Source of the DNA: Escherichia phage vB_EcoM_phAPEC6
DNA length: 64,000 nt
Strand: one strand, 5' to 3'
Sequence record: MK817115.1
In this document: one piece after another, positions 23,631-57,214 of the stretch
Numbering within the stretch: the first letter of the stretch is position 1
How the letters are laid out: every line of letters begins with the position of its first letter
Notes under the pieces: model-generated
What the model saw: only the letters and a program-made list of their open reading frames with translations
Databases searched by the model: none
What the model was told of the DNA's origin: nothing
Position numbers and translations under genes: made by a program

Positions 23631-23659
23631 ATTATACAGTACTGAATGTGTTTGTCAAC
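23631..23659 (-). promoter_or_regulatory. Sigma70-like early promoter with CAGTACTG in the spacer
   Basis: Minus strand: TTGACA-aacacattCAGTACTG-TATAAT. Confidence 0.65.
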
Positions 23660-35349: not shown

Positions 35350-35571
35350 TCATTCCTCATCACTTTCAGTTAGTATAATGCTATGTACAGCTTCCACATA
35401 GCGGTGTGTTTTGGGTGTGTTATACTTTGTAATTTCATCAAACAATTTAAACAGTGCATCTACTTCACTAAGAGCACGAATGAATACATCCATCTTGGTG
35501 ACTACTCTGGAAAACCCGCGTATGTTATTAAATTCAGAGACGTGTTCATACACAACATAGTATCTATTCAT
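35350..35571 (-). CDS. Hypothetical small protein
   Basis: 73-aa ORF. Confidence 0.5.
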   Translation of the reverse strand: MNRYYVVYEHVSEFNNIRGFSRVVTKMDVFIRALSEVDALFKLFDEITKYNTPKTHRYVEAVHSIILTESDEE

Positions 35572-36086
35572 ATATTAAAAAGTTCCATGAATTCATTGAA
35601 TAAAGAAGTTCTAATGCACATAACAAATTCAAAATCAACATCGATGGTGTCAAGTAGTTTGAACAACTTTGGTACTAATGGATCATTCACCTCAAAGTTA
35701 TGAATCAAACTTTGTTGAAACACATTTTCTTCAGTACTATAATCAATAACAAAATATTCAGCAATACCAGGTGGTGTGTAAACATCATATAAAATATGGC
35801 GGTGATGATTTGTTTTAGAACTAGGGGAATATATAAGTTCTATTTCATAAGATTTATCAGCACTGCGTGCGTAACAAACAATATCAGTACTCGTTATTTC
35901 TGAACCATCACTTCTCTCTGAAAAACAAACATCAGCATAGCGTTTTCCAGAGAGATTCAAAAGGTCATGAGTTGTTTTACCATAACAGAAATCAGTTTCA
36001 ATGCGTATCACATCTTGATATTCAATTGGTCTTGTATCGCGGCGTTCACGATTAAACACTAATTTCAACAACTCATTAATATCCAT
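35568..36086 (-). CDS. Hypothetical protein
   Basis: 172-aa ORF. Confidence 0.6.
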   Translation of the reverse strand: MDINELLKLVFNRERRDTRPIEYQDVIRIETDFCYGKTTHDLLNLSGKRYADVCFSERSDGSEITSTDIVCYARSADKSYEIELIYSPSSKTNHHRHILYDVYTPPGIAEYFVIDYSTEENVFQQSLIHNFEVNDPLVPKLFKLLDTIDVDFEFVMCIRTSLFNEFMELFNI

Positions 36087-37297: not shown

Positions 37298-37543
37298 TTA
37301 TTCTCCATGAATTACGGAAGTGTTGATTCGTGTTTTACCGCTAGTGTATCCAGTACTTGTATTTGCATTAGGACAGTACACAGTGTATAAAGTCGCACCA
37401 GCACCATCTTGTTGCATACGATAAATCTTACACCCTGCTTCTTTTAATTCAGCAGGTAGAACAAAATCACTTGTACGTTCTTTGGTAGAAGCATCACATG
37501 CAGTGAGTAGAAATGCGACGAGTACTGCTACAATGTATTTCAT
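37298..37543 (-). CDS. Putative lipoprotein
   Basis: MKYIVAVLVAFLLTAC lipobox-like N-terminus. Confidence 0.55.
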   Translation of the reverse strand: MKYIVAVLVAFLLTACDASTKERTSDFVLPAELKEAGCKIYRMQQDGAGATLYTVYCPNANTSTGYTSGKTRINTSVIHGE

Positions 37544-37851
37544 TAACGAACCTCCACTTCTTGAGAAAGAGCATGAGTCAGTGCATTTGAATTCGAACCA
37601 TTCATTTCACGCTGACATACAAACATAATGGCATCTTGTACTGAACCTGCGATTTCATACTCACGACCTTCTGGATCAGTTACCAGATGTTCAACGATAC
37701 AACCACCTCTCAGTACAGAAGCACCAGTACTTACACTAATTTTGTAACCTAAGAAATCAAACTGCATACATGCGTCAGTAGGTTTCATCCAATGACCGCT
37801 GTTTTGATTCAAATCGATGATTACAAAACCTTGAGTGTTAGTTTGAAACAT
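37543..37851 (-). CDS. Hypothetical protein
   Basis: 102 aa; preceded by promoter and a long leader hairpin. Confidence 0.55.
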   Translation of the reverse strand: MFQTNTQGFVIIDLNQNSGHWMKPTDACMQFDFLGYKISVSTGASVLRGGCIVEHLVTDPEGREYEIAGSVQDAIMFVCQREMNGSNSNALTHALSQEVEVR

Positions 37852-37880
37852 AGTTAATTCCTCATTTAATTTAAAAGGGC

Positions 37881-37932
37881 GGGAACGCAGTGACGAGTAC
37901 GATTATGCTGTCTTTCCTTTCACTGCATTCCC
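37881..37932 (-). promoter_or_regulatory. Leader stem-loop (13-bp stem, ~26-nt loop) followed by a U-run
   Basis: GGGAACGCAGTGA / TCACTGCATTCCC inverted repeat lying between promoter 37945-37974 and the ATG at 37851. Confidence 0.45.
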
Positions 37933-37944
37933 TTTGATATAAAC

Positions 37945-37974
37945 ATTATACTGCTATTATTCAGTACTGTCAAT
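37945..37974 (-). promoter_or_regulatory. Sigma70-like early promoter
   Basis: Minus strand: TTGACA-GTACTGaataatagcag-TATAAT. Confidence 0.6.
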
Positions 37975-38263
37975 CGATATAAGTACCTTTTTTAACATCA
38001 CAGACTTCTTCCATCCAATGTGGATTTTCGTTTTTATCAGTGAAGATTTGTTCTGCTTCTTCTTTTGTTTCAGCTAGGACAATACGATCCCCTTCATCCA
38101 AATCACGGATACGATACACTTTCAGTTCTTGTTTCTTCTCAAGGATATTACACAGTTCACGTGCTTTTTCTTCATCGCACTTCCCTTCATTAGCATAAAA
38201 CCAAATTGCTTTTTTAATAAGGTCACGTTCTTCTTTAGAAAAAGACATAATATTTCCTATCAT
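37970..38263 (-). CDS. Hypothetical protein
   Basis: 97-aa ORF. Confidence 0.55.
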   Translation of the reverse strand: MIGNIMSFSKEERDLIKKAIWFYANEGKCDEEKARELCNILEKKQELKVYRIRDLDEGDRIVLAETKEEAEQIFTDKNENPHWMEEVCDVKKGTYID

Positions 38264-38293
38264 TTGTTAAAGTGGATTTCGTTTGATATAAAC

Positions 38294-38321
38294 ATTATAC
38301 AGTACTGATATCTTCTGTCAA
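38294..38321 (-). promoter_or_regulatory. Sigma70-like early promoter with CAGTACTG spacer
   Basis: Minus strand: TTGACA-gaagatatCAGTACTG-TATAAT; same downstream leader as the 37945 promoter. Confidence 0.6.
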
Positions 38322-38827: not shown

Positions 38828-39616
38828 TTAAATGTTAGTAGTATAGTACTTGATTTCGTGTTGAATTGCAAGTTCTATTTGTTTATTGAAAAGAATTCCA
38901 AACTCTTTGATTGATTCACAATCGAATTCAATAGAAAAAGTATACTCTGGTACACGTACATTGTCAATACCCAAATACTCTTTTATGTAAATTTTAATGA
39001 GTTCACATAGTGCAGTACTAAGACATTGAATTTCAAAATGTTTTGCACCTTTGTCAAAATACTTGAATGCATCAATATCACCTACAATAAAACTATTCTT
39101 TAATGTAGTGAATAGGTTCTCAGGAAACACGGTAATAGGTGACATTGATTTAAGAATGTATGTATCTTTGGCATTCTTAATGTACTCAATGAAGCAGTAG
39201 TTGACGTCAGGCTCGATTGAACGATCCGCGTTATGATACCAGTGTTTAAACTCACTGTATTCAGCAAACTTATGCTGGCGTAATGCGTTACAATCTTCAC
39301 ACAGTGCAGTCATGTTCTCTTTATCATTACCGCCCTGAAGACAGTCCAGTACATTATGGTCTAACGTCATGCGTACAAGGCGTTTCCCTTTAAGTACATA
39401 AGGTCTGAATTTATAACGTTCTTTAGTACTGTGCTTGTGTAAAGTGAATACTACATTTGATTCACCACAACAATCACATTTAAAGCCATCACGTGACATT
39501 ACATGAATGAGTTTGCGTGTGTTCGGTCCAAACTCAGATTTAGTAATGTTATCCACAATTTCTGATGGTTGGTAATATTTTGAATTCCGTTGAATCAGTT
39601 CATCGATAGTGCTCAT
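38828..39616 (-). CDS. HNH-family endonuclease (possible homing endonuclease)
   Basis: CDCCGES ... MTLDHNVLDCLQGGNDKENMTALCEDCN fits the HNH His-Asn-His/Cys signature. Confidence 0.6.
   Translation of the reverse strand: MSTIDELIQRNSKYYQPSEIVDNITKSEFGPNTRKLIHVMSRDGFKCDCCGESNVVFTLHKHSTKERYKFRPYVLKGKRLVRMTLDHNVLDCLQGGNDKENMTALCEDCNALRQHKFAEYSEFKHWYHNADRSIEPDVNYCFIEYIKNAKDTYILKSMSPITVFPENLFTTLKNSFIVGDIDAFKYFDKGAKHFEIQCLSTALCELIKIYIKEYLGIDNVRVPEYTFSIEFDCESIKEFGILFNKQIELAIQHEIKYYTTNI

Positions 39617-54611: not shown

Positions 54612-55219
<608 letters not shown>

Positions 55220-56878: not shown

Positions 56879-57214
<336 letters not shown>

What the first reader, a model, noticed from the sequence alone, without database searches (positions are those of the whole stretch)
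37861..37974. Long terminator-like hairpin inside the 5' leader of gene 37543-37851
A 13-bp GC-containing stem followed by a U-run lies between a well-formed promoter and the start codon, so transcripts from that promoter must read through it. It could be an attenuator, a stabilising 5' structure or a binding site.
Basis: seen in the sequence. Interest (0 to 1): 0.4.

Follow-up and report, generated by a model that had tools for sequence, protein, structure and literature searches.

The report
Collapsed pseudo-tRNA hairpin in phage leader
The hairpin is real, but it is most likely not a transcription terminator: it is the shrunken remnant of a tRNA-like gene that this group of giant phages carries between an early promoter and the first protein gene, and it now forms a stable stem-loop at the 5' end of that early mRNA.

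Summary
The window comes from an Asteriusvirus, a 121Q/PBECO4-like E. coli jumbo phage, and its genes lie on the minus strand. A perfect sigma-70 promoter (-35 at 37973-37968, -10 at 37950-37945) is followed by a 13-bp stem (37932-37920 paired with 37893-37881; 7 G-C, 5 A-U, 1 G.U; -22.9 kcal/mol) with a 26-nt loop. No whole-window shuffle produced a comparable stem.

The 'terminator-like' reading is weak. The loop is far too long. Four bases (GCCC) separate the stem from only four U. That U-run is lost or shortened in relatives, and it is homologous to the AU-rich ribosome-binding region of orthologous genes that have no adjacent hairpin. The phage's own terminators look quite different: 8-12 bp stems, a UUCG loop, then 5 or more U directly after the stem.

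The loop and inner stem are homologous (24/27) to the central arm of a pseudo-tRNA that follows the same promoter in Klebsiella phage RaK2. An Erwinia jumbo phage has a related tRNA-like gene in front of the orthologous gene.

Across 35 Asteriusvirus genomes the 5' arm and loop appear invariant. All three stem substitutions give G.U on the sense strand.

Best reading: a tRNA-derived 5'-leader RNA hairpin acting after transcription; its exact function is untested. Interest is modest.

The parts
37945..37973 (-). Sigma-70-type early promoter: TTGACA, 17 nt, TATAAT. The stop codon of the upstream gene (37970) lies inside the -35 hexamer.
   Evidence: 12/12 consensus match. The same -10 plus discriminator TATAATGTTTATATCAA(A) recurs at 38299-38282. 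It also precedes the pseudo-tRNAs of RaK2 and K64-1.
37933..37944 (-). Discriminator and initial transcribed bases GTTTATATCAAA. The predicted start is near A 37938, leaving about 6 unpaired nt before the stem.
   Evidence: The start site is inferred from the usual 7-nt distance after the -10; it was not mapped. In RaK2, K64-1 and Hallingskeid the tRNA-like element starts 11-12 nt after the -10, the same register.
37920..37932 (-). 5' arm of the hairpin, GGGAATGCAGTGA.
   Evidence: Invariant in all 15 aligned Asteriusvirus copies.
37894..37919 (-). 26-nt loop AAGGAAAGACAGCATAATCGTACTCG. It is homologous to the central arm of RaK2 pseudo-tRNA gt006.
   Evidence: Local alignment of 24/27 identities, score 39 against shuffles of 12.4 +/- 2.0, reached by 0 of 2000. 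Invariant in the aligned Asteriusvirus copies.
37881..37893 (-). 3' arm of the hairpin, TCACTGCGTTCCC.
   Evidence: Three substitutions occur among relatives. All are C->T, giving G.U on the sense strand.
37852..37880 (-). GCCC spacer, TTTT, an AU-rich stretch and the Shine-Dalgarno GAGG: the translation-initiation region of gene 37543-37851.
   Evidence: Homologous to the region upstream of the orthologous gene in RaK2 and K64-1. GCCC and TTTT are variable among relatives.
37543..37851 (-). Downstream early gene, 102 aa, PHROG 26720, unknown function. The hairpin stays attached to this gene in every recombinant.

Best explanation
The element is an RNA hairpin at the 5' end of an early mRNA. 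It is the collapsed remnant of a tRNA-like (pseudo-tRNA) gene that RaK2-like jumbo phages carry directly after an early sigma-70 promoter, in front of the first small ORF.

In the Asteriusvirus lineage the acceptor, D and T arms of the cloverleaf are gone. The former central ('anticodon') arm, with its apical sequence, has been extended into one 13-bp helix.

Host RNA polymerase starts about 6 nt upstream of the stem (inferred). The hairpin is transcribed as the first structured element of the leader, and also as an intercistronic hairpin in read-through transcripts from upstream promoters. It acts after transcription, most probably by shielding the mRNA end from 5'-end-dependent decay or processing. 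It may also present its conserved loop to a factor. It does not act as an intrinsic terminator.

Shown: the anatomy, the homology to pseudo-tRNA, the conservation pattern, and the lack of terminator features. Inferred: the start site, the stabilising or processing role, and any binding partner.
For: 1. The stem is real and far beyond chance.
2. Its loop and inner stem match RaK2 pseudo-tRNA gt006 at 24/27, with 0 of 2000 shuffles scoring as well. gt006 in turn matches the Hallingskeid element (score 30 against 13.2 +/- 2.2). That element scores 37.1 bits on the Rfam tRNA model, whose threshold is 29.
3. Orthologues of the downstream gene are also preceded by a promoter plus tRNA-like elements in Hallingskeid and RaK2, and by a tRNA-like element in K64-1. 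The structured element begins 11-13 nt after the -10 in all of them.
4. In the 15 copies read base by base the 5' arm and loop have 0 of 39 variable sites. In the downstream gene 33 of 103 third-codon sites vary. All 35 Asteriusvirus records keep the leader at 94.6% identity or more.
5. All three stem substitutions are C->U and keep pairing as G.U on the sense strand only. Every variant still folds into the hairpin, while the antisense strand has A.C mismatches.
6. Terminator features are absent or not conserved. The phage's real terminators are stereotyped and different.
Against: - No transcript data exist for this phage group in the library searched. The start site, the RNA ends and any effect on stability are all untested.
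- About 6 unpaired 5' nucleotides is at the edge of what is known to allow ompA-type protection (my own knowledge).
- A simple stabiliser would not need an invariant 26-nt loop, so the real function may be more specific.
- Low diversity in the leader could partly reflect recent recombination at promoter cassettes rather than selection.
- A perfect 13-bp stem can arise in one step by template switching, without selection.
- The helix registers differ between lineages, so no formal covariation test was possible.
- Two orthologous loci (XaC1 and metagenomic contig L097) have no leader structure at all.
Confidence: 0.5

Rival explanations
1. Neutral relic. The hairpin is a decaying pseudo-tRNA fragment with no present function. 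Its perfect stem arose in one step, by quasipalindrome or template-switch repair. It looks conserved only because the Asteriusvirus genomes are young and promoter regions recombine often.
For: - The homology to pseudo-tRNA is clear.
- Leaders of the orthologous gene differ completely between genera, and two have no structure.
- Promoter cassettes do recombine: gene 37970-38263 is deleted between two promoter copies in CMSTMSU, Ecwhy_1, ph0011 and others.
- The reverse complement of the 5' arm carries A where the 3' arm has G, as in the RaK2 T-loop TTGCATTCC. This is compatible with a templated inverted copy (inference).
Against: - 0 of 39 variable sites in the 5' arm and loop, against 32% at third-codon positions next door. 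The 9 nt just after the stem have 6 variable sites.
- All three stem changes preserve pairing (about p = 0.05 under a simple neutral model; my estimate).
- The element is single-copy in the genome, so it cannot be homogenised from paralogues.
- The 27-nt core is retained at 89% identity across genera whose flanking gene is about 78% identical at the DNA level.
Confidence: 0.25
2. Specific recognition site. The conserved loop, presented on a stable stem, binds a phage or host protein or pairs with another RNA. This would regulate translation or decay of the early mRNA, or decoy a host tRNA-directed enzyme.
For: - The loop sequence is invariant in the 15 Asteriusvirus copies read and is 24/27 identical in RaK2, although the surrounding stems differ.
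- The loop derives from the anticodon-arm region of a tRNA-like gene.
Against: - No partner was identified.
- No complementary site was found in the window.
- No Rfam family matches.
- In RaK2 the same core precedes a different gene.
Confidence: 0.15
3. Transcription attenuator or partial intrinsic terminator. The hairpin plus the U-run stops a fraction of transcripts coming from this promoter or from upstream.
For: - A strong 13-bp stem with four U nearby, lying 38 nt downstream of the stop codon of the upstream gene.
Against: - 26-nt loop; GCCC between stem and U-run; only four U.
- The U-run is shortened or broken in CMSTMSU and UE-S1.
- The U-run is homologous to the ribosome-binding region of orthologues that lack the hairpin.
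- The site is not called by the terminator scan.
- At least six stereotyped true terminators in the window have tetraloops and 5 or more adjacent U.
- There is no room for an antiterminator in the promoter's own transcript.
Confidence: 0.07
4. DNA-level element. The inverted repeat is an operator or recombination site bound by a dimeric protein just downstream of the promoter.
For: - 13-bp inverted arms lying at about +7 to +58 relative to a strong promoter.
Against: - The arm substitutions break DNA symmetry but keep RNA pairing, as G.U on the sense strand only.
- The 39-bp centre-to-centre spacing is atypical.
- The arms occur nowhere else in the window.
Confidence: 0.03

Closest known systems
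Pseudo-tRNA genes of Klebsiella phage vB_KleM-RaK2 (RaK2_gt006 and gt007; Simoliunas et al. 2013, PMC3622015)
   Same: - They follow the same early promoter, with the same -10 and discriminator TATAATGTTTATATCAA.
- They start at the same distance after the -10 and lie upstream of a small early ORF.
- The central arm of gt006 shares 24/27 bases with the window's loop and inner stem.
   Different: - gt006 is an 87-nt cloverleaf-like element with an 8-bp acceptor stem and a T arm. The window keeps only a 52-nt single hairpin.
- Neither ARAGORN nor the Rfam tRNA model recognises the window element.
- In RaK2, gt006 precedes a different gene.
5'-terminal stabilising stem-loops of E. coli and phage mRNAs (ompA 5' UTR type; my own knowledge)
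   Same: A stable stem-loop close to the predicted 5' end of the transcript, upstream of an unstructured AU-rich ribosome-binding region.
   Different: About 6 unpaired nt are predicted before the stem, and the loop is long and conserved in sequence. No half-life data exist.
PeSL cassettes of T4-type phages (Arbiol 2010, PMC2839356; Comeau 2014, PMC4122927)
   Same: A near-perfect sigma-70 early promoter plus a stem-loop, Shine-Dalgarno and start codon, in a region of small ORFs. The repeated promoter part mediates gene deletion and exchange between relatives.
   Different: In PeSLs the stem-loop lies just upstream of the promoter and acts as the terminator of the preceding unit. Here it lies downstream of the promoter and lacks terminator features. 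The window's true PeSL-like units are the AAGGGTTGACTTCGGTCAGCCCTTTTT cassettes.
Rho-independent (intrinsic) terminators and attenuators
   Same: A G+C-containing stem with some U downstream.
   Different: The loop is 26 nt. A 4-nt G/C spacer precedes a 4-U run, and that run is not conserved. No alternative structure is available.
T4 tRNA-region stable RNAs (species 1 and 2, rnaC/rnaD; my own knowledge)
   Same: tRNA-derived, non-decoding small structured RNAs encoded among the early genes of a large myovirus, with unknown function.
   Different: Those retain tRNA-like ends and are processed as separate stable RNAs. This element has lost the tRNA-like ends and sits within an mRNA leader.

Membership tests
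Intrinsic (Rho-independent) terminator | Stem of about 5-14 bp rich in G-C | tested here: met
   13 bp with 7 G-C pairs, -22.9 kcal/mol.
Intrinsic (Rho-independent) terminator | Short loop (3-8 nt) | tested here: not met
   The loop is 26 nt, and the site is not called by the terminator scan.
Intrinsic (Rho-independent) terminator | U-tract of at least 5 U within 0-2 nt of the stem, conserved among relatives | tested here: not met
   GCCC is followed by only four U. The run is TTT in CMSTMSU and CTATTAATT in UE-S1.
Attenuator (alternative-structure control of a terminator) | A competing antiterminator structure or a leader peptide | tested here: not met
   Only about 6 nt precede the stem in the promoter's own transcript. 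The short reading frame through the 3' arm has no canonical start in the window (ATC where RaK2 has ATG) and is frame-shifted in CMSTMSU (reading of the sequence).
PeSL (promoter-early stem-loop cassette) | Sigma-70-like early promoter with Shine-Dalgarno and start codon at the 3' end | tested here: met
PeSL (promoter-early stem-loop cassette) | Stem-loop located just upstream of the promoter, serving as terminator | tested here: not met
   The stem-loop lies downstream of the -10. The definition is taken from PMC4122927, Fig. 3 legend.
PeSL (promoter-early stem-loop cassette) | Repeated element associated with indels or exchanges between close relatives | tested here: met
   This holds for the promoter part only. 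Gene 37970-38263 is deleted between two promoter copies in CMSTMSU, Ecwhy_1 and ph0011, and a third promoter variant occurs in Turkey5. The hairpin itself is single-copy.
tRNA / pseudo-tRNA gene | Cloverleaf recognised by tRNA models | tested here: not met
   ARAGORN and the Rfam tRNA model find nothing at 37881-37932.
tRNA / pseudo-tRNA gene | Sequence homology to a tRNA-like gene in the same genomic position in relatives | tested here: met
   24/27 identities to RaK2 gt006, with 0 of 2000 shuffles as good. gt006 matches the Hallingskeid element, which scores 37.1 bits on the Rfam tRNA model.
5'-terminal mRNA-stabilising stem-loop | Stem-loop within a few nucleotides of the transcript's 5' end | tested here: inconclusive
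   About 6 nt are predicted from promoter geometry. The start site has not been mapped.
5'-terminal mRNA-stabilising stem-loop | Prolongs mRNA half-life in a stem-dependent way | not testable with these tools
   This needs rifampicin-chase assays with stem-disrupting and compensatory mutants.
Known Rfam cis-regulatory or sRNA family | Match to a curated covariance model | tested here: not met
   The best match is DUF2815 RNA at 15.4 bits against a threshold of 41.2, E = 1.6.

The most novel reading that the evidence does not exclude
The tRNA-like elements placed right after early promoters in RaK2-like jumbo phages may be a functional class of leader RNA rather than decaying tRNA genes. Examples are RaK2 gt006 and gt007, the Hallingskeid element with enlarged 'anticodon' loops, and this collapsed hairpin. 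On this reading the conserved apical module (…AAACA…CAGCAUAAUNGUACUCG…) is the active part. It could act as a processing signal, as a decoy for a host tRNA-directed nuclease or modification enzyme, or as a binding site for a phage regulator. It would be kept in Asteriusvirus even after the tRNA body was lost.
Probability: 0.15. Interest if true: 0.55.

Novelty: new variant of a known kind. Interest (0 to 1): 0.3.

Why it matters
- It corrects a tempting misreading. A long hairpin plus a few U in an AT-rich phage leader is not necessarily a terminator, and here the U-run belongs to the ribosome-binding region.
- It gives an example of a tRNA gene decaying into a simple mRNA-leader hairpin while its apical sequence stays fixed.
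- It points to a recurring layout in RaK2-like jumbo phages: early promoter, then a tRNA-like element, then a small ORF. That layout has been annotated only as 'pseudo-tRNA' and never examined functionally.
- If the leader elements are functional, they would offer a handle on early mRNA processing and stability in jumbo phages, for which I found no transcript maps in the library searched.

Tried and rejected
- Rfam: a search of 16 kb around the site, of the 151-nt region alone, and of the whole window gave no credible family.
- ARAGORN: no tRNA at the site. It also missed the RaK2, K64-1 and Hallingskeid elements.
- Scan of viral contigs for the loop core ACAGCATAATNGTACTCG: only 121Q and RaK2 are true relatives. 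The other 10 hits lie in unrelated sequence with no similarity to the leader outside the core, and are treated as chance matches.
- Scan of viral contigs for the promoter tail TATAATGTTTATATCAA: almost all hits are chance AT-rich matches.
- BLAST of RaK2 gt006 and of the Hallingskeid element against all phage records: each is found only in its own lineage.
- Protein-guided search for more orthologous loci in viral and metagenome contigs: no new lineage carrying a leader structure.
- Leader-peptide idea: a frame AUA-AUC-GUA…UUU-UAA runs through the 3' arm, preceded by AAGGA, and RaK2 and Hallingskeid have an AUG at the aligned spot. Rejected for four reasons. The window has no canonical start. 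RaK2 and Hallingskeid lack a usable Shine-Dalgarno. The peptides are unrelated. The frame is broken in CMSTMSU.
- RNase P 'minihelix' idea (13-bp helix followed by GCC C): the NCC motif is lost in UE-S1 (AACC) and ph0011 (GUAC).
- Formal covariation test across genera: abandoned, because the helix registers differ and Hallingskeid has two competing helices.
- Pfam and PHROGs on five flanking proteins: unknown function only.
- Literature: no transcriptome or promoter mapping for Asteriusvirus or RaK2. The ncRNAs of the related phage PA5oct are unrelated to this element.

Full report
**Source and context**

The 1-kb region around the finding is 98.6% identical to Escherichia phage 121Q, vB_EcoM_G17 and Sharanji. 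It has relatives in 44 phage records: 35 Escherichia or Salmonella Asteriusvirus genomes and 9 Klebsiella Alcyoneusvirus records. Genes in this part of the window run on the minus strand. They are small early ORFs of unknown function, each or nearly each with its own near-perfect sigma-70 promoter.

**Checking the observation**

All coordinates here are on the minus strand.

- The stop codon of the upstream gene (37970) lies inside a -35 TTGACA (37973-37968).
- Seventeen bases later comes TATAAT (37950-37945), then GTTTATATCAAA.
- The stem follows: GGGAATGCAGTGA (37932-37920), a 26-nt loop (37919-37894), and TCACTGCGTTCCC (37893-37881).
- After the stem come GCCC, TTTT (37876-37873), AAATTAAAT, GAGG (37863-37860) and ATG (37851).

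The 13 pairs comprise 7 G-C, 5 A-U and one U.G. The hairpin alone folds at -22.9 kcal/mol. The predicted leader has a z-score of -4.2.

A stem of this class occurs once in the 64-kb window. The class is at least 13 bp, at most 1 G.U, at least 6 G-C pairs and a loop of 3-40 nt. It occurred in none of 40 dinucleotide-preserving shuffles of the whole window. Two caveats apply: the loop is very long, and the 'U-run' is four U starting five bases after the stem.

**Is it a terminator?**

The tool's terminator scan does not call it. Four further lines of evidence argue against a terminator.

1. The phage's genuine terminators in the same window are stereotyped and different. AAGG(G)TTGAC-TTCG-GTCAGCC(C)TTTTT has 8-12 pairs, a UUCG tetraloop and 5 or more U directly after the stem. 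It occurs at least six times, and the -35 hexamer of the next promoter lies inside the stem.
2. Among relatives the stretch right after the stem is the most variable part of the leader. GCCC becomes ACCC, AACC or GTAC. The T-run becomes TTT in CMSTMSU and is broken to CTATTAATT in UE-S1.
3. CTTTTAAATTAAATGAGGAAT is homologous to CTTTTAATTTAATTGAGGAAC upstream of the orthologous gene in RaK2 and K64-1, where no hairpin abuts it. The U-run is thus part of the AU-rich ribosome-binding region common to these early genes.
4. A transcript from this promoter has only about 6 nt before the stem. No alternative antiterminator pairing is possible.

**What it is**

In Klebsiella phage RaK2 the same promoter (identical -10 and discriminator, TATAATGTTTATATCAA) is followed directly by an annotated 87-nt pseudo-tRNA, RaK2_gt006. 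The RaK2 paper describes gt006 and gt007 as pseudo-tRNA genes (PMC3622015).

The window's loop and inner stem align with the central arm of gt006 at 24 of 27 positions. The alignment score is 39, against 12.4 +/- 2.0 for shuffles, and none of 2000 shuffles reached it. The flanking GCAG…CTG(C/T) pairs are also shared.

gt006 is in turn homologous to an element in Erwinia phage Hallingskeid (score 30 against 13.2 +/- 2.2, with 0 of 2000 shuffles as good). That element scores 37.1 bits on the Rfam tRNA model, above the gathering threshold of 29, with a 16-nt insertion in the anticodon loop.

The Hallingskeid element lies between a promoter and the orthologue of the window's downstream gene, PHROG 26720. 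The layout in the other relatives is as follows.

| Phage | What precedes the orthologue |
|---|---|
| RaK2 | Promoter, then gt007 (30.4 bits on the tRNA model, 11-nt anticodon loop), then a second degenerate tRNA-like element |
| K64-1 | The second tRNA-like element only |
| K64-1, KP13-7 | A D-arm-less derivative of gt007, at the position of gt006 |
| XaC1, metagenomic jumbo contig L097 | No leader structure |

In all structured cases the element begins 11-13 nt after the -10.

A MAFFT alignment places the window's 3' arm (TGCGTTCCC) opposite the T-loop of gt006 (TGCATTCCT). This part of the homology is plausible but not statistically secured.

The simplest history is as follows. An ancestral module consisted of an early promoter, a tRNA-like gene and an ORF. 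In Asteriusvirus it lost the acceptor, D and T arms, and the remaining central arm was extended into one long helix.

**Evidence for constraint and for an RNA-level role**

All 35 Asteriusvirus records keep the leader at 94.6% identity or more. I read 15 copies base by base. The variable sites among them are distributed as follows.

| Segment | Variable sites |
|---|---|
| 5' arm plus loop | 0 of 39 |
| 3' arm | 3 of 13 |
| 9 nt after the stem | 6 of 9 |
| Third-codon positions of the downstream gene | 33 of 103 |

The three stem changes are all C->T on the sense strand, converting G-C to G.U. Every variant still folds into the same hairpin, whereas the antisense strand acquires A.C mismatches. 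This favours an RNA structure on the transcribed strand over a DNA operator.

The element is single-copy in 121Q and in RaK2. Gene conversion from paralogues therefore cannot explain its uniformity.

The promoter part, in contrast, is repeated, with a copy at 38321-38282. It is a recombination point. CMSTMSU, Ecwhy_1, ph0011 and others have lost gene 37970-38263 by an exchange between the two promoter copies. Turkey5 carries a third promoter variant. In every case the hairpin stays with the downstream gene.

**Mechanism**

I commit to a post-transcriptional role as a stable stem-loop near the mRNA 5' end. It most likely protects against 5'-end-dependent decay or fixes a processing point. In read-through transcripts it would act as an intercistronic barrier.

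The invariant loop hints at something more specific, such as a binding site for a protein or an RNA. I keep that as a separate rival. A neutral relic remains a serious alternative, for three reasons:

- a perfect stem can arise in one step by template switching;
- the genus is young;
- two orthologous loci lack any structure.

No transcript maps for this phage group were found. The start site and every functional step are therefore inferred.

**Comparison with known systems**

The element is not a canonical PeSL. In PeSLs the stem-loop lies upstream of the promoter and terminates the preceding unit (PMC4122927). The window's terminator-in-promoter cassettes fit that description; this hairpin does not.

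It fails two of the three defining features of intrinsic terminators. No tRNA model recognises it, yet it is demonstrably homologous to a pseudo-tRNA. It resembles ompA-type 5' stabilisers in position, but this is untested. No Rfam family matches.

**Verdict**

This is a real, non-random RNA hairpin that has been reinterpreted: a tRNA-derived leader element, not an attenuator. It is a new variant of known kinds (pseudo-tRNA relic, 5'-leader stem-loop). Interest is modest at 0.3. The more novel possibility is that promoter-proximal tRNA-like leaders form a functional class in RaK2-like jumbo phages. My data do not exclude it, and I give it a probability of about 0.15.

Noticed in passing
window 18710-18674, 20892-20855, 21817-21780, 26391-26355, 28815-28783, 32242-32208 (minus strand): There are at least six copies of a composite terminator-promoter cassette, AAAGG(G)TTGACTTCGGTCAGCC(C)TTTTTG(C/T)TATAAT. 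An 8-12 bp terminator stem with a UUCG tetraloop contains the -35 hexamer TTGACT. The U-tract forms the spacer of the next promoter. This is a very compact PeSL-like unit.
   Followed up: partly
window 37945-37973 and 38282-38321; loci L003, L088, L089, L090: Two promoter copies share TATAATGTTTATATCAAA. Nine relatives lack the upstream gene. In CMSTMSU, Ecwhy_1 and ph0011, read base by base, gene 37970-38263 is lost by an exchange between the two promoter copies. Turkey5 carries a third promoter variant and a different upstream gene. This is promoter-mediated modular shuffling, as described for T4-type PeSLs.
   Followed up: yes
window 23631-23658 promoter, hairpin about 23621-23601 (minus strand): A second perfect early promoter is followed, 9 nt after the -10, by a 5'-proximal hairpin GGGGATGA-ACTTC-TCATCCCT. 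One search gives -16.2 kcal/mol and z = -3.3 for the 66-nt leader. The 5'-proximal stem-loop layout is therefore not unique to the finding.
   Followed up: partly
L004 335-520 (RaK2), L080 425-610 (K64-1), L094 405-580 (Yersinia phage fHe-Yen9-04), L093 195-335 (Serratia phage ChuuTotoro): A non-coding block of about 100-180 nt is conserved across unrelated phage groups. It consists of a degenerate type-II-like tRNA (GCGGGTG…CACCCGCC) plus a downstream stretch GCACTAAAGG-hairpin-GAAAATAACACGAGGCNNCGGAATACGCCTAC. It occurs in RaK2-like jumbo phages, Eneladusvirus, CBB, Klebsiella phages of about 145 kb and Vequintavirinae. In ChuuTotoro the tRNA part is annotated tRNA-Phe. No Rfam family covers the downstream part.
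   Followed up: partly
L004 531-606 (RaK2 gt007) and L092 482-564 (Hallingskeid): These tRNA-model hits have greatly enlarged anticodon loops: 11 nt in gt007, and a 16-nt loop in place of the usual 7 in Hallingskeid. Each sits directly after an early promoter. They cannot decode normally, and their function is unknown.
   Followed up: partly
window 57120-57192 (minus strand): ARAGORN calls a tRNA-Gly(tcc) here. The Rfam tRNA model does not report it even at E <= 2. It may be another degenerate tRNA.
   Followed up: no
window 54612-54701 (minus strand): This tRNA-Met is 90 nt long and has a long extra arm, which is unusual for a Met tRNA.
   Followed up: no
window 35913-35955 (minus strand): A 15-bp inverted repeat (2 G.U, 13-nt loop) lies inside ORF 35568-36086. 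It is the longest stem in the window.
   Followed up: no
L097 1441-1480: In a 366-kb uncultivated jumbo-phage contig, the promoter of the orthologous gene has an 8-bp inverted repeat GGGAGTAT…ATACTCCC that brackets its own -10 hexamer.
   Followed up: no
window 38828-39616 (minus strand): A free-standing HNH endonuclease gene (annotated as such in 121Q, gene 170) lies about 0.9 kb upstream of the finding, within the shuffled early region.
   Followed up: no
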